The notes under the pieces were generated by a model that was not told the origin of the DNA, made no database searches, and was given only the letters and a program-made list of their open reading frames with translations. Source: Atractiella rhizophila (Eukaryota). Taken from it: a stretch of DNA of 64,000 nt. Every line of letters begins with the position of its first letter. Within the stretch, counting starts at the first letter, position 1. A program made the position numbers and the translations under genes. The stretch lies in assembly GCA_021432655.1 (NCBI GenBank), contig MU271375.1:1-64000 (forward strand). Direction: 5' to 3'. Below, one piece after another: positions 200 through 12,700 of this stretch.

Positions 200-1933
200 C
201 TACGGCCTCTCTGTTCCCTCTGGCATGGAAAAGCTGGTTCGAGCACTGGAATTGGAGTCGTGTACGGCCGGCAGAGTAGAAGAAACGGTAGAAGAGGAGG
301 AGGACAGTGGGAGTTCGTTTTCAGGCGGAGTGCCGAATGCAGAGGGAAAGGTGGTCATCAGATCCTGGAAATCTGCGTATCCTTCCGGCTCCTCGTAAAG
401 GTCTGTCGATACCTGATTTCGCCAGCGTTAGGATATTCTCAATCAAATTGAAAGAGTGCGCACAGAGCTGGGTGGTGATTGATCTACGTTTCCTGATAAG
501 AGACGCTCGAGTTCAAGCTCGAATTCGGAACTAGACGTGTTTCGAAAAGCTGCCAGAGAAGATGCTTGATGGCATCCGATGATCTTGCAGATTTCGATGA
601 GCCTACAAACTATGAGAATCATACTTCAAAGACAGCGGACGAGCGTACGACACAATACTACGTTGAATGCCTTCCTCTGGATCTGACTTTGGAGCGTGTT
701 TGGCAAATCTTGACATAGGGTCGACTTGCTCCCCAGTCGTGTTCATTGCGATCAAGAACTCGCCCCAGAACGCAGTCCATGGCCGTGCCTGTAAAATCTG
801 ATCAGTAAGAGAACAAATAAGGTGAATGATGCGGACTTGATCGCTGGCACGTATGAAACTTGCGAGAACTGGCCATTGAGTTTCGACCTCCATCTCGCAC
901 TGTCGATAAATGTCCCTGAGAGCATTTTGTCGTCGAAGGTCGTCATTCTCAATTGTCGCTGTTACAGACTCATTGATGTGGACGTCAAATCGGCGGAGGA
1001 ATTCTTGAAGGTGCAGGAAGAAGTCAAAGTACTGTTCCGAAGACATGACTTGATTCAAACGCGTCAAAACCGTAGGCTCTTTGGGTCTCCAATTCAGCAA
1101 AAAATCCTCAACAAGCAAGTGAAAGGAACTGACCGTCACCAGCCGGCCCAACAAAAGTAACTTGCGGTGAAATTCCTACTGGTTTGAAACAGTCTCGCCG
1201 CCATTGAGCTCTTCGCTGAATTATGGACCATAATCGCATGAGGACGTCCGTGCCTTGAGAAAAAGTAGCGATTTGAAGCGTCGCGGCTGTTCATTGCGAT
1301 CAAATGGAAGACTGGAGGGAAAAGGTGGACGACGAACACGCTATGGCTAGGCTACGTTTGACGCATTCCAGAGAAGCGCAGGTGATCCTCATCTGCTGTG
1401 TGAGAGTAATTGGAGTTGGCAGTTGATAGACGCTAAGCGGATCACGGTAAAGTGTTCCTGGGACCGACACGGTGGTGAAGTACTGGTCGATTTCTTGATC
1501 TGTGAGGAGAGGTAGCCGTCGGAGTCGTTGCGCTATGCAATTGTCAAATGCCTACAGAATCAATAAGCGAACGGATATCACGATTTCTTGACGCTCACCA
1601 GCAATGTAAAACCTAGCTCCCTAAGCCTCTCTTTTTCCAAGGCGTCCTGACAATCGTTCCATAAAACGCGAAAATACTGGACCGTGGTGACCAAGAAAGG
1701 GACGCATTCCTCTGTCATGGTATTCCATGTCTCTTGAATAAATGTTAATAGAATGTAAATGCTTTGACGAGTTGGTGTGGCGATGCAAGGATGATTTTGG
1801 AATTTTCGAATGGAACTAAGCATGAGCAACCGTGCGGCAGATTCACGCATGGGTTTGGAAGAATTGTCATGATTTTGATTTTGTGATGCTGTCAGTGAGG
1901 CGACAGAAGCGAAGGTCTGGATAAAACATCAGT
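200..1933 (-). CDS. Fungal Zn2Cys6 transcription factor, middle and C-terminal exons (5' part lies across the gap in the mirrored block)
   Basis: Spliced minus-strand exons (ORFs 1578-1850, 603-1154). TLL|AFDNCIAQRLRRLPLLTDQEID resembles the fungal TF middle homology region. Acidic/Ser-rich tail ends ...PEGTERP* at 200-202. Confidence 0.65.
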
Positions 1934-2105
1934 NNNNNNNNNNNNNNNNNNNNNNNNNNNNNNNNNNNNNNNNNNNNNNNNNNNNNNNNNNNNNNNNNNN
2001 NNNNNNNNNNNNNNNNNNNNNNNNNNNNNNNNNNNNNNNNNNNNNNNNNNNNNNNNNNNNNNNNNNNNNNNNNNNNNNNNNNNNNNNNNNNNNNNNNNNN
2101 NNNNN
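1934..2105. other. Assembly gap (N run)
   Basis: Run of n characters. Confidence 1.
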
Positions 2106-2595
2106 TACGTGGTAAAGCCTGCGGGGGAAGACTAACAAGCGAACTTCAGAAAGGAGAGGAAAAGCGAGTGAGCGGGGCAACTTAAGTTTGACAGCCTTAT
2201 AGCCTCTCTGAAGGAAACCTTATTTTGTCGCTACTGAGGGTAGTCGTCGAGGAGGTGATTTAGTGGTAAAGCCGCTATGTTGTGTGCCTTCTAGCAAGGG
2301 ATTAATCCTATAAAGTCAAAACGACACCCGGACACCAGTTTCGGATGATGCTGGCTACAGAAAGAGAGATCGCAAGGGCACGGGCGACGAAGCGGAAGGT
2401 TCATTAGGGGCCGTTCACTCTCGATCGCTCTACTAGCTCTATTAAGCTAGCTCCCAGCTTTCTAGATGGGATAGAGCGCATTTTGATTACGACCGTCCCG
2501 TTTCTTCTCCTTCCACCCTAACGAGCCCTAACCTCGTGAGGGCGTGTGTACGAATGGCCCGGGTACCCACGCTGCATGAGGTGCTTGGCATCGTA
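2106..2595. CDS. Putative small gene readable right-to-left without complementing; may end in native sequence 3987-4032
   Basis: Reverse reading gives ATG at 2595, a GTAAGC donor, a ctaattag acceptor and a 64-codon open exon GTIFRVLYRRNGDLVEELLMG...GRPKWC. That exon can join in frame to KEDDEDGGAKLHEE* (stop 4030-4032). Confidence 0.35.
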
Positions 2596-3326
2596 GTTTA
2601 TACAATAATAAAAGTTTTCCTGTTCGAAACATAATAACCTAAAGCCCTACTTCAGCTGTCTGTTCGAATGTCGATCGAATACCTGCACCTCTACGCACTT
2701 CCCTGTTATTATCGACCGAAAGCTCGGCCTGCTAATACTTTTGGGGAAGAGGAAACTTACACTCACGGTCCGACTTTAATACTGAACTCTACGTTGCCGC
2801 GGTCGTTGCCTGGAAAAAGTGATGGGGAGCATGAATTGCATAGGACGAGAGTGACGGGCCGCCGAGGCGCAAGCGCTACGTTGTTGAACCGTGAAATCAG
2901 AGGGGGTCGGCAGTTGCCGCTTTGAGAGCCCTCTTAAAAACAGACAGGGTCGTTGTCATACGTTAAACAAGCCTGCACAGTGTGAGTCAGAGCTTGGCTA
3001 AACCTACATACAACGACAAAATCGTCGCGCCTCTCTGAAACGTTTGAAGCCCTACGTCGCCCCGGGTAGCAAATATAACGTTCTAAATCCTTCGCCTAAC
3101 ATTTAGGACCGCGCATTTAGGACTCGTCGAACAAGTGGAACGAACAAGCGGCAGAAGTGCGAGACGCTTCTCCCAAGACCCCTGCCCGTCTTTCTGGAAG
3201 ACTATACATATATTACTGGACGGGTGAAACAAGGGGACTACAACTGTCGGCCTGTTGAAACTTGGGACTAGCGTGAGGAAGATAGGACTATAGAATGCAG
3301 TTAGCTCTAAGTCGGGTGTAGAGTCC

Positions 3327-3983
3327 TACTCGGGACGAGGGAGATGAAAGAAGTCGTAGACGCCGCTTTCCACGTTTTCCGCTGTTCGGGTTTTAGTGTT
3401 CTTTAGCTTTCATAGATCGAACGCTGCATTCGGGTGTGAAGGTTGAACGCTGAACTGTACCAGTTTTTGACTTCAGCTCGTATCCGTACAGCAAGCACCT
3501 CTTCTTTCACAGTTGCTTATTTACTAAGTCTCTAAACGCGTCCCACAAGTCTCTCCTTTTTAGTTCACTCGAGACAGGAATTTATGCGGCAGCGAGACTC
3601 TTTCTTGGAGCGAAAATATCCACGCTCTGCTGGATGTAGGCGTTTTGGCGCTTGCTGACTCTTTAGCAGAAGTTTTGCGCATCTGTGACGCGCCACTCAA
3701 AATATTTACACGAAGAGCAGGCAGGAATAGACAACTGAGAGGCAATTTCTAACAACAAACCGCTACCGCTGTGTAATACGGTCGATGGAGGAAACTTGCG
3801 CTGCAAAGGCCAGTGTAGAGCTAGGAGTGGACGAAATTAGGCGCGTGAAGGAGTCCTACAGGTTCCACCCGAAGAGCGACGTACGAAACTCAGGCGGAGT
3901 ACCTGTTCAGCATCGGCATAGCTACCCAGAAGATGTGGGGGTGGTGCAGAATACCATTGATGAAGACGTTGCGCTTTGCCGCT
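3327..3983. CDS. N-terminal Zn2Cys6 (GAL4-type) exons, readable only as the left-to-right complement
   Basis: The complement gives KPKITRNRKYLACD|ACRSWRRKCQRINDSEICAGCSERKIK|CETTYIRKPR, i.e. C-x2-C-x6-C-x8-C-x2-C-x6-C, after removing single extra bases in homopolymers at ~3557-3561 and ~3643-3646. Confidence 0.85.
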
Positions 3984-4136
3984 CGGGAAGGAGGATGACG
4001 AGGATGGCGGCGCCAAACTTCATGAAGAATGAAAAATGCAAAGGCAGGATTCACATTCATCTCAGTGTCCATTCTTACGAGTCAACTTGAACATCGGAAT
4101 AGGAGCGAATAACAATAGAGGAAGGAAAGGCAAACA

Positions 4137-5001
4137 TCAAGCTGGAGCAGTCACAGTTACCTGTCCTCCATTGTTATTTTTAGCTTTCAAAACCTCAATC
4201 TCCCTCTTGAGCTCCAAGATCTGCCTCTCCTTTCCCTCATCACCCAAATCATTAACAGCCATGCTAACTCCAGAAACTAGTTTGACGATGCGCCATAAAC
4301 GGAGGAGGATGAGGAGCGAGGTGATGGAGGAGAGTGAGGGAGGAAGGATGAGCTCGAGCACGAAGGTGGTGCTGTTGTCGGTGATCGCAAATACGATATG
4401 AATTAGAACAGGACTCGGTGAAGTGAGAGAGGGGCATGAAAGAGAGGATAGAGGAGAGATTTACAGAATGACTGTTGCGTCCAAGAAGTGGAGGAAGCCG
4501 TGTTCGACCCTCCAAGGGATGTAATGTGAAAATCCGAAGGCGTAGACAGTAAACAAGATTCTAGTTCCACAAATTTCAGTGCACACCATCAGGATAAGAG
4601 CAAGTAACTTGTCACTTACTCCAGCACAAATACAGCGGTGATACCCAAACTGATTCTTGATAGAATCTCAATCGGCAGTGGCTCCTTCATATCATGTCTT
4701 TCCGGAGTACCACCTCCATCAGGACAACGACAATGTTTTTCCAACGTGAGGAGGTCGTAAGCGATTTCAGAGATCACGCAGATTGCATCTATGACGGTCT
4801 ATATTCAACGTGAGTAAGAATTTACTCGCGACGAAACTGAGAAGTTCAACGAACCAGACTAATAATAAAACGATGCGTCCACGGCGACTCCAATCTTTCG
4901 CGTACTCTCAGCTTTCTTGGGCTGACTCCATCAGCTCCATGTTGAGTTTCTGCTGGTCTGATAAGAGGAGTTTCCTCATTTTGTTGTTCTTCGTCCTCCA
5001 T
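4137..5001 (-). CDS. HVCN1: Voltage-gated proton channel Hv1-like protein
   Basis: Spliced product MEDEEQQNEETPLI...HRFIISL|TVIDAICVISEI carries the S1 Asp, S4 LILLRLWRIVKLV (RxWRxxK) and a C-terminal coiled coil ILELKREIEVLK. Confidence 0.85.
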
Positions 5002-5153
5002 TCGATCGACGTGTTTGATCCCGCGTTGAGGGCATCACTAATTGGTAGAACCAGACTACATGATGGACAATAAGGATCCGCAGCTGTTCTTATTGCCCTT
5101 CAAAATCGCTGCCAATCGCGCCGATATCCAGCCAGCCAGTAATATCATCAACG

Positions 5154-5790
5154 ATGCAGCGTGCAGGAAAAGTTTCAGCACCTCCTCGGCCTATGACGCC
5201 CTGGGAGAAACCAGTTTTTGAATCTCTTCTGGATTCCAAGGGCAATTTGACTCCAAAAGTCTGTTCCTCTTCTCCCTCGCTTACCAACACTTGCTCACTT
5301 CTTTTCTCAGTTCGAAGTAGCGCTTCTATACATTTTTCTGCTATACAATGCCCTCCCAGACGCTTTTTCACGGACGGGACGCCGTCCGTCCATCCCTCCA
5401 GTTTCTTTTCCTCCTCCATCCTCATCGACGGATACCAAAAAGCTATCCAAACTTTCTCTCTCCTCTCCACAGCTCCAAACACTCTTACTAGACCTTTCTC
5501 CGCCGTCCCACCCTCTCTCTCCCGCTCCTCCACTCTCTCCAACTCCCGCTTCAGAACAAGGAGACCAAACTCCAGAAAATTCCATCACCTCCTTAACGGA
5601 CAGCTTTTCCACTAATGACAAGGGAGAATTGACGTGGGATGGCTTCAAAGAATGGTGGAGTGACTCCTGTCGGAATCAAGGAGAGGAGGAGGTATGGGAA
5701 GATCTGAAGTGTCTGGGTTTTGGAAACGATTTACAACTTGTTGGAAGCAGGAGAGAGGACGAAGACGAGAACGCGAATGAGACGAGGTGA
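5154..5790 (+). CDS. EF-hand-like domain protein (uncharacterised)
   Basis: Two exons: LLDSKGNLTPK|FEVALLYIF...STNDKGELTWDGFKEWW...EVWEDLKCLGFGNDLQL; stop 5788-5790. Confidence 0.55.
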
Positions 5791-6686
5791 GAGTTTTGAT
5801 GATGAATATGTGACATGGGAAGGAAGAGTTTGTTTAAATGTGTTTGTTCACACCACCATTTTGCACGTCGTTTGTTTCCGATCTTTGCATGTTTGAAGTT
5901 GATACCCCGATCTATCGATCAATATCATTTGCTACGTTTGTGCGGAGCGAAGTAGTTATTTCTTCGATTGAAGGAGAGCAAACAGGAAAGTGATGAGCAG
6001 ACACGCACCTTTCAAAGACAGTTCCTGCCATTCTCAGTCCTAAGCATGGCATGGAGATTCAAGGTTGCGAAGATTGAAAGGATGGATGTTAGAGCGCACA
6101 CATCTCTCCGTGGCGTGTGCAGTGTTAGGACCTACCGATATTTTCAATGAACGTAAATGAGTTTTAATTAATTAATTTGTTTTCCCGGTTACATGGAATC
6201 GTGGTGGAGGAGTCATTCCAATGAAGTTACTAATGAAGTTACTGTTTCTGTGCTCTGAAATCCTATAAACTAGCCAGCCCTTCATTAATTTTACCTGCGA
6301 TCGTATAAGCAATACACAGTCCACTTCAAAAGTGAAACGAGTCTTGCTCTACGGACAATGTTGAAATGTCAAGCCAAAGTAAGGACAAGAACTCAACTAA
6401 AAAGTTGATTATGAGAACAACACGGTACGCAAGTATCGAGGGAAACCGATGGTGTAAGTGGCTAAAGGAAAAATACTCAAAAACACAAATCCGACTAAAG
6501 GGAAATAGAGCAGCAACGCTGCCGTTGAAAAGAAAAAAAACCAAAGCAGCACAAGAAGCTTTCGAAGACGTGTGTATTCGTCAATATCGTTATAAAAAGA
6601 ATGAGGTCGTTCCAAGTTTTGTTTTCCTCATAAGTCGAATAGCAAGAGTAGAAGCGCAATGCTTCCATTGCTCCCTCTCATTGTCC

Positions 6687-9768: not shown

Positions 9769-12700
9769 ATGTCGCTGTCCGATATCCCTCTCAACATTGT
9801 TCCCCTCCTTCAAACACTTGTATCTTCGTCTGGACCAGAGAGAGACCATGCGGAGGCGGAACTGACGGCGAACCACCTTGCTAGTCGACCTGACGATACC
9901 CTGAAATGCCTTGTGGATACCGCTAAGAGCTATCCAAAATCCGAAGGGGAAGATGGCGAGACTGTGAGTACCTTGATTCAGCTTGGACGGAGGAAAGGAA
10001 TGGAGCTGTCGAGATGCAATCGGACTTGGTTACGGACTTTGTGGAGCTTGCAACTACCATTGAAGTGCAGTTGCGGCTCATTCGATAGCTAAAGATGTTC
10101 AGATGTTCAAATGCTCCAATATAACAACTTGAGGCAAATATATCTGCCTAACTCCCTTTGTCGAAGCGTTTAAGCTGAGGGAGCGAGGCTGATCTCAGCA
10201 CTGGACCATATCTATCCAGCAACAAGCCGTCTATAGCTTATGCCTTTGTAATTGTTTATCTGGTTCGATGCCTACTCACACTACTCTCAGTGTTGGCAGA
10301 CTGTATACAGAATACGCTAAACTGCGTTGTTTGCTCCTGCTGTCGGAATCAACGGCTGTCAAGAGCTGCCACCAGATGCGGTGCTTTCAGTTGATTGTGG
10401 TGCCAACCTTTATGCATTTAAGTGTTGCTGTAGCAATGCCTTCTATGGGCTTCCAGCTGCTTATTGTGAACATTGTTTGCACGCCGAAGCGCAACGAAAC
10501 CGAAGCATCACAATTTGCGCACTTATGTGGCTTTAGCAAAACTTAGCGTCAACATTAATGAGAATGGACATTAATGTTGTTACACCTAGATGCGAATCTT
10601 CGTCCTTGTTCTCCTACGTCGTCTCTCCTTCCGACCCCTCTCTGAAAGTGTCGCGAAAGCTCACCGAAAAACAAAACGACCAACTTCTCTGGACCAAATT
10701 TGGGATGTTCTCTCGGACAGATCAAGATCCTACGTCCTGGATGGCCTGCTGGAATGTTTGGGCTGATGAAGGGAATTGGAGGAAGGAGCGCGAGAGACAC
10801 GCGGTTGCTGATTGTGTTGGGGAGTTCGCAAGAGCCGCCGTCAGCAGAAGCGGTAGTTTTTTCACCCATCAGCCAGGTGTTCTTTGATTGCGTGGAACAG
10901 AGGATTGGGATCGTCTGTTGGAACTGCTCAGTCGACTGATTGAGAGCACATTTAGCAGCAAGCGAGAAGCCGTCTTTCTTGTCCTTGANNNNNNNNNNNN
11001 NNNNNNNNNNNNNNNNNNNNNNNNNNNAACACAATTCGCTGGATGAAGACGTCAGATCGTCAATCGCCTACTCCCACTGATGTTTTCAATTTTGAAAACA
11101 TTTCACGCGACGTCTTCCCACTCCCGCCTTCTCTCTTCTCTTCTCAGCCTTTGCTCTCTCTTTTCTGTACCCGCACCTCCAGCTCTCAGACTAGCCCTCC
11201 CTCTCCAAGCGCTACAACAATACACCGCGCTCCTTTTAGACATTCTTGCTCTACATTCGCCTTCGAATCCTCCGAAAGACCCAAACCCTCTTCTTGCTAT
11301 GATGACAGATCTGGATGAAATTCGACAGATGGCTCTCGAGCTGTTAGTAGGTATGGCTGAGGTAGCGAACGAGCGTGGAACGTTGGTAAGAGGAGGATAA
11401 TCTTCCTGGAAAAGAGTGGTTGCGCACTGTCATTGGTCGCGTCTTTAGAGTAGCATCCGAAATTCCAAACATCGACTTTCAGGAATGGGACCTAGCTGAA
11501 GAAGGAGAAGAAGCGGAGCACATCGGTTTCGTCGCAGAAACAGCACTCGACCGGCTGGCAGTTTCTTTGGAAAAGTCGCGGCTGAGGGTTTCCTTCCCTT
11601 TCGTTGGCGAGATGCTCACGACGCACGAGGAGAAAGAAGGAGAGCATCCAATATGGAAGAAACGATTGGCGGCTTTGGGAGCAATCGGCGCTATGGCGGA
11701 TGGATGTGGAGGAGAGATGAGCAAGAATTTGGATAAAATTATGGGACTTGTGCTCCCCATGTTGGATGATGAAAATGTGAGAGTAAGACATGGAGCTATT
11801 TATGCTCTCGCTGAGCTTTGCTCTGACCTTCCAGTAAGCATTGCCTAGATTTGGCATCGCTAGACTAAAGAGTCTCTTTTAGGGAAAAGTGCAACAATCG
11901 TTTGCCGAACCAGTATTGAATGCACTGGTTGCGGTATATAAAACGTCGTCACATCGGTCTGTCGTCTGTTTCTCGCGTACGTGTCATTGATTATCGTCGC
12001 AGAATCAAAAGGTACTCTCTTTCTGCTCTGGTCAACTTTATCGAATCAGCGACACCTGAAATCCTCGGTCCTTTCCTTGGAGGTCTTCTACAGCACCTCG
12101 TCAACGCCTTCAACACTGGCGACGAATACCTGCAGGAGGCAGCTCTGAATGTCATCAGCTCTATGGCCGAAGTTGCAGGTCCAGCCTTCAGGGACTTCTA
12201 CCCTGCTCTTGCACCTTTATTATTCGCCGTGGTAGAAGACAAGCATCAAAATTTGCATATGAAAGCGAAGGCTCTTCAGACGGCTACCTGTATCGGTCTG
12301 TGTTTTGACTCTGTGTTGGTTTGAAACTGAATATGGAAGCAGCTGCATGCTGTGACATTAGCACAGCTCATCAAAGCTCAGTGGAGCAGATGGGCCATTC
12401 CCTGTTAGACCTTCTGCGTAAGCTTCTCGGCCCTGCTTCCTGTTCTTGTATCTGAATTGGGATACAGAAAATCTTCACCATACCGAAGAGGAAACGGAGA
12501 CTCTCCGAATCGTCCTCACTTCCTTCGGACAACTGGCACAGGCGCTCGGTGCTCATAATTTCAAACCATATCTACCCCAGCTCCTTCCTATTCTCCTAGA
12601 GAACGCTGCTGTTCGACCAGACGTCTCCTTAACAGCCAAAGACGAGGCGGATGAAACCGAAGAAGAAGAAGGATGGATTTACCTCGATGTTCAAGGACAA

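What the first reader, a model, noticed from the sequence alone, without database searches (positions are those of the whole stretch)
2106..3986. A 1.9-kb block written in mirror image hides the DNA-binding exons of the neighbouring transcription factor
Seen: the six normal frames give nothing. The plain complement read left to right (not the reverse complement) gives three 55-58 nt introns (GTAAGC..TAG 3427-3484, GTGAGC..TAG 3566-3620, GTGAGT..AAG 3694-3749) and the GAL4-type motif CDACRSWRRKCQRINDSEICAGCSERKIKC. Reversing the block puts these exons on the minus strand pointing into the gap, upstream of the TF exons at 200-1933 that lack a Zn cluster. The other end then joins in frame to KEDDEDGGAKLHEE* at 3987-4032. 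Established: ordinary inversions give reverse complements, not reversals. Inference: almost certainly a gap-filling or sequence-handling error next to the N run, and invisible to six-frame annotation. If it were present in real DNA it would need an unknown mechanism.
Basis: partly seen in the sequence, partly recalled or inferred. Interest (0 to 1): 0.85.

Follow-up and report, generated by a model that had tools for sequence, protein, structure and literature searches.

The report
Backwards-written block beside an assembly gap
About 1,850 letters next to a gap in this fungal genome record were written back to front without swapping strands, which is a data-handling error and not biology, and it hides the likely start of a neighbouring regulator gene from every standard gene-finding tool.

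Summary
The mirror block is real and it is an artefact. Assembled contigs from three public runs (two samples) fit the window from 3955 rightwards. To the left they continue with letters unlike the window. The first 30 of those letters are the exact plain reversal of 2109-2138. A strand-symmetric 6-mer direction score is -153.7 over 2106-3954. The same score in 32 equal-sized control chunks has mean +207, sd 43, and none is negative.

The block runs from 2106 to 3954 or 3957, not to 3986.

After reversal, the minus strand carries an open frame of 167 codons that reaches the gap edge. It contains five of the six cysteines of a Zn2Cys6 cluster at the right spacing. It points at the N-terminally partial gene at 203-1916.

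The claimed in-frame join to 3987-4032 fails. The Zn_clus HMM could not be run on the altered sequence.

Only one of the four gap flanks in the window shows the signature. The interest is practical, for assembly quality control, not biological.

The parts
1934..2105 (.). Run of 172 N, the scaffold gap. It forms the left border of the mirror block.
2106..3954 (.). Block written as a plain reversal without complement. The right end is 3954 or 3957, and both give the same corrected sequence. Window coordinate x corresponds to corrected coordinate 6063 - x.
   Evidence: The loose-end consensus of X1, X2 and X3 equals the reversal of 2109-2138. 6-mer direction score -153.7 against control mean +207.2, sd 42.7. 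Equivalence of the two right ends.
3343..3426 (.). Complement read left to right (the minus strand after correction): basic stretch ending in the first cysteine of the cluster, followed by a GTAAGC donor. No in-frame ATG lies in this stretch.
3427..3484 (.). Intron-like unit 1, 58 nt, GTAAGC..TAG in the complement reading. Removing it joins cysteine 1 to cysteines 2-5 in frame.
3485..3565 (.). Complement reading: 27 codons holding cysteines 2-5 with spacing x6, x8, x2 and the basic residues typical of the first half of a Zn2Cys6 cluster.
   Evidence: Matches in shuffles: loose pattern 26 of 3000, post hoc specific pattern 0 of 3000.
3566..3620 (.). Intron-like unit 2, 55 nt, GTGAGC..TAG. Kept, the frame stays open but there is no sixth cysteine. 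Removed, the frame shifts and stops.
3621..3693 (.). Complement reading: Ser/Thr/Lys/Arg-rich stretch, open in the same frame as 3485-3565.
3694..3749 (.). Intron-like unit 3, 56 nt, GTGAGT..AAG. Removing it keeps the frame open into 3750-3954.
3750..3954 (.). Complement reading: last hidden exon, open to the block end, which is the gap edge after correction. A GT lies 3 nt from that edge in phase 0.
203..1916 (-). Exons of the N-terminally partial protein P0001 (472 aa). Its first exon starts right after a CAG acceptor at 1917-1919, 15-17 nt from the gap, so the gap lies in an intron.
4137..5034 (-). Neighbouring minus-strand gene with a stop codon at 4137-4139. A 1313-nt contig of X3 (record 14, table 8) is laid on its exons at 4101-4371, 4620-4798 and 4855-4990, with joints at 4371-4465, 4560-4620 and 4798-4855. 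A joint 4041-4101 and a loose end before 3955 are also listed for an X3 contig of the same depth (tables 5, 7). This suggests a 3' untranslated region running into the mirror block.
3987..4032 (+). It is normal, unmirrored sequence. Two stops at 3958-3963 lie upstream in its frame, so the join is not supported.

Best explanation
Window 2106-3954 (or to 3957) is a software or handling artefact. A stretch of real sequence was placed between the gap and the contig that begins at 3955. In that step it was either reversed without being complemented or complemented without being reversed; the two errors give the same letters.

The real DNA is the block read right to left. In that form it holds three things on the minus strand:
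- probably the 3' untranslated end of the gene at 4137-5034;
- an intergenic stretch;
- the 5' exons of the gene whose later exons lie at 203-1916.

Those hidden exons carry a Zn2Cys6-type (Gal4-like) cluster motif, so the gene is probably a fungal zinc-cluster regulator. The public protein is 'partial' because its start was written backwards.

Shown: the reversal, its borders, and the open frame carrying a five-cysteine motif. Inferred: the step that caused the error, which I think was extension of the right-hand contig into the gap by a gap filler. Also inferred: that the hidden exons and 203-1916 are one gene, and that the missing sixth cysteine reflects a one-base error in a low-quality filled stretch.
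For: 1. One search, tables 7 and 8. Contigs of X1, X2 (one sample) and X3 fit the window from 3955 rightwards and run on leftwards with at least 255 unlike letters. X1 record 1 is 1678 nt long with 353 laid. X2 record 9 is 1407 nt long with 99 laid.
2.. The 30-letter consensus of those loose ends matches the reversal of 2109-2138 at 30 of 30 positions. It is absent as written, as reverse complement and as complement.
3.. The strand-symmetric k-mer direction score is negative only in the block. The block scores -153.7. The held-out flanks score +260.8 (1-1933) and +86.7 (3955-4500). None of the 32 leave-one-out chunks is negative, and the block lies about 8.5 sd below their mean.
4.. Stop-free stretches of 60 codons or more sum to 497 codons as written and 1353 after reversal.
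5.. After reversal, with units 1 and 3 removed, 167 codons are open up to the gap edge.
6.. The four-cysteine core occurs in 26 of 3000 dinucleotide shuffles of the block. Its basic-residue version occurs in 0 of 3000 and nowhere in the other 60 kb. That version was defined after seeing the match.
7.. The partial gene's first exon starts behind a CAG acceptor 15-17 nt from the gap. The hidden exon has a GT 3 nt from the other gap edge. Both are in phase 0.
8.. The only database protein matching 203-1916 is named by its source 'hypothetical protein BT69DRAFT_1282935, partial [Atractiella rhizophila]'.
9.. 24 of 30 language-model look-alikes of P0001 are clusters carrying Fungal_trans. This is a lead only: score 0.92, 128 of 256 features shared.
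10. Established knowledge. Breaking and rejoining DNA can only produce reverse complements, because of strand polarity.
Against: - No reads of the window's own strain were seen. X1 and X2 differ from the window by about 1-2% (15 other letters and 14 gap letters in 1496 nt), so they may be another strain.
- Only 30 letters of the loose ends were shown. Reversal of the rest of the block rests on the k-mer score.
- The six-cysteine motif is not encoded as written. No in-frame ATG was found in the first hidden exon.
- P0001 has no Pfam family at E up to 1. It has no relatives other than itself among 1.84 billion representatives.
- Donor-like hexamers are no more frequent than background.
- The second gap in the window (10989-11027) shows no mirror signal at 100-nt resolution, so the error is not a rule at every gap.
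- The software step responsible is a guess. No paper on the assembly method was found.
Confidence: 0.95

Rival explanations
1. The block exists in the organism's DNA exactly as written, as a physical mirror-order segment made by some unknown mechanism.
For: No reads of the window's own strain were available, so this is not excluded by direct observation.
Against: Strand polarity forbids reversal without complement by any known recombination. Two other samples carry the reversed order at the 3955 junction. As written, the block has the k-mer make-up of backwards DNA and would destroy the neighbouring gene. It also abuts an N run, where assembly software edits sequence.
Confidence: 0.003
2. The block is an ordinary inversion or an ordinary mis-oriented contig (a reverse complement), and the mirror reading is a chance effect.
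For: Orientation errors at scaffold gaps are common (general knowledge).
Against: The reverse complement of the loose-end consensus is absent from the window, while the plain reversal matches 30 of 30. A reverse complement would leave a strand-symmetric k-mer score positive, yet the score is -153.7. Read laying reports strand-changing joints and reported none here (table 5).
Confidence: 0.005
3. The block is reversed, but the Zn-cluster-like motif is chance or a dead remnant, and the hidden sequence is not the start of the gene at 203-1916. In that case the gene's true 5' exons lie in the gap or elsewhere.
For: Only five of six cysteines are encoded, and no canonical splicing restores the sixth. 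There is no in-frame ATG. P0001 has no Pfam transcription-factor domain. Donor hexamers are at background level.
Against: The frame is open for 167 codons to the gap edge. The motif is rare in shuffles, 26 of 3000 for the loose pattern and 0 of 3000 for the specific one. Orientation and splice phase fit on both sides of the gap. The Atlas look-alikes of P0001 are zinc-cluster factor families (lead only).
Confidence: 0.25

Closest known systems
Contig orientation and inversion misassemblies at scaffold gaps
   Same: The fault sits at a gap border, breaks a gene model, comes from assembly or finishing software, and is fixed by re-orienting a block.
   Different: Those errors are reverse complements. 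Aligners and six-frame searches still find the sequence. Here the block is reversed only, so BLAST, read mapping, six-frame translation and gene predictors all see nothing. I found no paper describing such blocks in genome assemblies. The searches were listings; passages. The papers found use reversed sequences only as designed controls or decoys.
Gal4-type Zn2Cys6 binuclear cluster transcription factors (Pfam Zn_clus PF00172 with a Fungal_trans middle region)
   Same: After correction there is an N-terminal basic stretch, then cysteines spaced x2, x6, x8, x2, with Arg/Lys at the usual places. A Ser/Thr/basic linker and a long C-terminal region follow. The spacing rule is recalled from general knowledge, not taken from a call.
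   Different: The sixth cysteine is missing as written. There was no HMM test of the cluster. The C-terminal 472 aa have no Pfam hit and no sequence relatives.

Membership tests
Reversal-without-complement artefact | Independent sequence data show the reversed order at the block's junction with normal sequence | tested here: met
   the loose ends of contigs from 3 runs (2 samples) match the reversal of 2109-2138 at 30 of 30 positions, directly left of 3955.
Reversal-without-complement artefact | The whole block, not only its edge, has the statistics of backwards DNA | tested here: met
   6-mer direction score -153.7, against 32 control chunks with mean 207.2, sd 42.7 and none negative; with k=6, all 6 negative 500-nt windows lie in 2001-3750.
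Reversal-without-complement artefact | Not explained by reverse complement or by duplication of other local sequence | tested here: met
   the reverse complement is absent; blastn of the block, as written and reversed, against the rest of the window gives only one 21-nt hit at E 0.096.
Reversal-without-complement artefact | Reads of the same strain fail on the written version and fit the reversed one | not testable with these tools
   No genome or reads of the window's own strain are held. Altered sequence may not be sent to the read tools.
Zn2Cys6 (Zn_clus, PF00172) | Six cysteines spaced C-x2-C-x6-C-x5-12-C-x2-C-x6-8-C (spacing recalled) | tested here: not met
   five of six are present as written. 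No combination of 1-2 introns from 249 GT..AG candidates gives six. A one-base change would: one base dropped at 3555-3561, or one base added at 3621.
Zn2Cys6 (Zn_clus, PF00172) | Significant score against the Pfam Zn_clus HMM | not testable with these tools
   The translation comes from an altered sequence, which cannot be handed to the family search. No Zn_clus sequences were available in the script box to build a profile.
Fungal-specific transcription factor middle region (Fungal_trans PF04082 / Fungal_trans_2) | Pfam hit in the C-terminal part (P0001) | tested here: not met
   0 families at E up to 1. One search gives only a language-model lead: 24 of 30 look-alike clusters carry Fungal_trans, score 0.92.

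The most novel reading that the evidence does not exclude
The reversal comes from a repeatable bug in a gap-filling or finishing step. If so, the same invisible mirror blocks would sit beside gaps elsewhere in this assembly and in other public genomes made with the same pipeline, hiding exons and producing 'partial' or missing genes. In this window, one of four gap flanks shows it. A strand-symmetric k-mer direction score would find the others. The bolder reading, that mirror-order DNA physically exists in the organism, is not strictly excluded without the strain's own reads. I put it below 0.5%.
Probability: 0.3. Interest if true: 0.45.

Novelty: not a real feature. Interest (0 to 1): 0.22.

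Why it matters
This is not biology. It is a rare kind of record error that alignment, read mapping, six-frame search and gene prediction cannot detect. Here it cuts the likely DNA-binding start off a gene, which the public record consequently calls partial.

If the same step ran on other gaps or other genomes, genes next to gaps would be silently lost. A simple k-mer direction score (as-written against reversed, strand-symmetric model) flagged this block at about 8.5 sd. It could be run over whole assemblies as a quality check.

Tried and rejected
1. Cover. In one search all 12 bins from 2106 to 3869 had depth 0 in all 4 runs, while X1 and X2 had depth in all 18 bins to the right.
2. Runs X5-X11 held small shares (0.05-0.12).
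3. Whole genome. None is held, so other gaps of the assembly could not be scanned.
4. Related DNA from metagenomes. The search for related loci with P0001 gave 54 pattern matches, none confirmed. The exact 30-letter loose-end consensus gave 0 matches.
5. Relatives of the partial protein. The 1.84-billion-representative search gave only P0001 itself and one repeat protein at E 3.8e-4, which I take as spurious. The word-index search gave only P0001 itself. No full-length orthologue was therefore available to compare with the mirror translation.
6. Pfam on single exons of 200-1928 and on the as-written ORFs of the block. Nothing passed a cut-off. The best sub-threshold hits were E 0.021-0.084.
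7. Splice-donor counts as a test of direction. They do not discriminate.
8. tRNA scan of the block in both versions: none.
9. Overlap of the reversed block with the contig left of the gap, which could have closed the gap: none.
10. Earlier findings of this scan. Nothing relevant came up.
11. Papers. Three searches for reversed-not-complemented assembly errors and two for the assembly method gave nothing usable. I saw listings only, plus passages of PMC6191289 and PMC6733440.

Full report
WHAT IS THERE

The window has a run of 172 N at 1934-2105. The 1.85 kb to its right looks like ordinary 49-52% GC sequence. Read normally it holds nothing. The longest stop-free stretch in 2106-3986 is 95 codons on the plus strand and 80 on the minus strand. 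None of the seven as-written ORFs of 60 aa or more passes a Pfam cut-off.

IS THE BLOCK REALLY MIRRORED?

Three lines of evidence say yes.

1. Public runs.
- I looked for runs holding 2106-6500 and laid the four best on it.
- Contigs of X1 and X2 (one sample) and of X3 fit the window from 3955 rightwards.
- To the left they carry loose ends of at least 255 letters that lie on nothing in the stretch, on either strand. X1 record 1 is 1678 nt long with 353 laid. X2 record 9 is 1407 nt long with 99 laid.
- The tool prints the same 30-letter consensus for all three runs. A script found that string in the window only as the plain reversal of 2109-2138, 30 of 30. It is absent as written, as reverse complement and as complement.
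- So in real DNA of two samples, what lies left of 3955 is the start of the block read backwards.

2. A direction score.
- I built a strand-symmetric k-mer model of the window. For each k-mer it scores log P(as written) minus log P(reversed).
- Reverse-complementing does not change this score. Reversal flips it.
- With k=6, all 6 negative 500-nt windows in the 64 kb lie between 2001 and 3750.
- With k=4 and k=5, seven negative windows lie there, and two marginal ones (-0.1 to -9.0) lie elsewhere.
- With the model trained only on 4501-64000, the block totals -153.7. The held-out flanks total +260.8 (1-1933) and +86.7 (3955-4500).
- Thirty-two leave-one-out chunks of the same length have mean 207.2, sd 42.7, minimum 70.5, none negative. 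The block lies about 8.5 sd below them.

3. Reading frames. After reversal, stop-free stretches of 60 codons or more sum to 1353 codons, against 497 as written.

BORDERS

The left border is the gap. The right border is 3954 or 3957, not 3986. The three letters at 2106-2108 and at 3955-3957 are mirror images of each other, so both choices give the same corrected sequence. Window coordinate x maps to corrected coordinate 6063 - x.

WHAT THE BLOCK HIDES

Neighbouring gene on the right.
- RNA-like contigs of X3 and X4 show minus-strand introns at 4799-4854, 4561-4619 and 4372-4464 (table 5; the GT..AG ends were checked).
- Joined in a script, these exons give a 229-codon open frame with a stop at 4137-4139.
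- X3 record 14 (1313 nt) is laid on these exons. A joint at 4041-4101 and a loose end before 3955 are listed for an X3 contig of the same depth. This suggests that about 540 nt of it continue into the real version of the block, which would then begin with that gene's 3' untranslated region. The mapping of record 14 below 4101 is my inference, not a row of table 8.

Hidden exons, in the complement read left to right (the minus strand after correction).
- 3343-3426 is a basic stretch ending in a cysteine, directly followed by GTAAGC.
- After the 58-nt unit (3427-3484), 27 codons carry four more cysteines spaced x6, x8 and x2, with Arg/Lys in the usual places.
- With units 1 and 3 removed, the frame is open for 167 codons right up to the gap edge.

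Across the gap.
- Exons at 203-1916 on the minus strand encode P0001 (472 aa).
- Its source names it 'hypothetical protein BT69DRAFT_1282935, partial [Atractiella rhizophila]'.
- Its first exon starts directly behind a CAG acceptor 15-17 nt from the gap.
- The hidden exon has a GT 3 nt from the other edge. Both are in phase 0.
- The simplest model is one gene with an intron across the gap. If that intron is as short as the others seen here (52-93 nt), the real gap is much smaller than 172 nt. This is inference.

HOW GOOD IS THE ZINC-CLUSTER CLAIM?

For it:
- The four-cysteine core occurs three times in six frames of the corrected 64 kb.
- It occurs in 26 of 3000 dinucleotide shuffles of the block.
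- The version with basic residues occurs once, here, and in 0 of 3000 shuffles. I defined that version after seeing the match.
- The language-model Atlas puts P0001 nearest to clusters of fungal zinc-cluster factors: 24 of 30 hits carry Fungal_trans, at score 0.92 with only 128 of 256 features shared. That is a lead, not a test.

Against it:
- None of the one- or two-intron combinations from 249 candidate GT..AG introns gives six cysteines.
One added base at 3621 is the only single edit that gives six cysteines and an open frame to the gap.
- There is no in-frame ATG in the first hidden exon. A nearby ATG lies in another frame.
- P0001 has no Pfam family at E up to 1. It has no relatives.
- Donor-like hexamers are at background level, so the 'three introns' are not evidence by themselves.

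The apparent one-base frame problems would fit a low-quality filled stretch, but I could not check this. The Zn_clus HMM could not be run, because altered sequence may not be passed to the family search. I put the 'hidden zinc-cluster start of this gene' reading at about 0.7.

THE OTHER END

That stretch is normal sequence. In its frame two stop codons stand at 3958-3963. The corrected plus strand has no convincing gene ending there. This part is not supported.

MECHANISM

Breaking and rejoining DNA preserves 5'-3' polarity, so a reversal without complement cannot arise by recombination. It can arise in software, by reversing a string without complementing it or the other way round.

The block is bounded by an N run on one side and runs seamlessly into a contig on the other. 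That is the layout expected when a gap filler extends a contig end into a gap it cannot close. I therefore think the extension of the contig starting at 3955 was written in the wrong sense. This step is inferred.

I found nothing on the assembly method. I found no paper describing such blocks (passages). The second gap in the window (10989-11027) shows no such signal at 100-nt resolution. So one of four gap flanks is affected.

COMPARISON AND VERDICT

The nearest known thing is an orientation misassembly at a scaffold gap. The difference is that this block is invisible to alignment and to translation. It is not a biological feature.

Its value is practical. The record and the partial gene model should be corrected, and the direction score offers a cheap whole-assembly check. 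No genome of the window is held and the metagenome scans were empty. I therefore could not tell whether the error is systematic.

Noticed in passing
window 4137-5034, minus strand: A four-exon gene, with introns 4799-4854, 4561-4619 and 4372-4464 seen in RNA-like contigs of X3 and X4. Its product has a positively charged S4-like helix followed by a coiled-coil-like tail. From memory it resembles fungal voltage-gated proton channels (Hv1 type). Pfam on single exons gave nothing, and the joined protein was not tested.
   Followed up: partly
window 10989-11027: A second run of 39 N. Its flanks have a normal k-mer direction score in 100-nt bins (lowest -0.7), so no mirror block lies there.
   Followed up: yes
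window 5258-5311, plus strand: A 52-nt GT..AG intron is seen in contigs of X3 and X4 (table 5). It lies inside long overlapping open frames on both strands at 5064-5790, a stretch with a strong C-over-G skew (GC skew down to -0.58). The plus-strand gene was not examined.
   Followed up: no
window 4042-4100: A contig of X3 skips 59 nt here with ends AG..AT, which are not intron ends on either strand. The tool marks the letters in between as not known. It may be a diverged stretch of 3' untranslated region in that organism and not an intron.
   Followed up: partly
window 5775-6003: X1 and X2 each hold two alternative short contigs (110-121 nt) at different depths over the same places, differing at several letters (tables 3 and 8). 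This looks like two alleles or a repeat in that sample.
   Followed up: no
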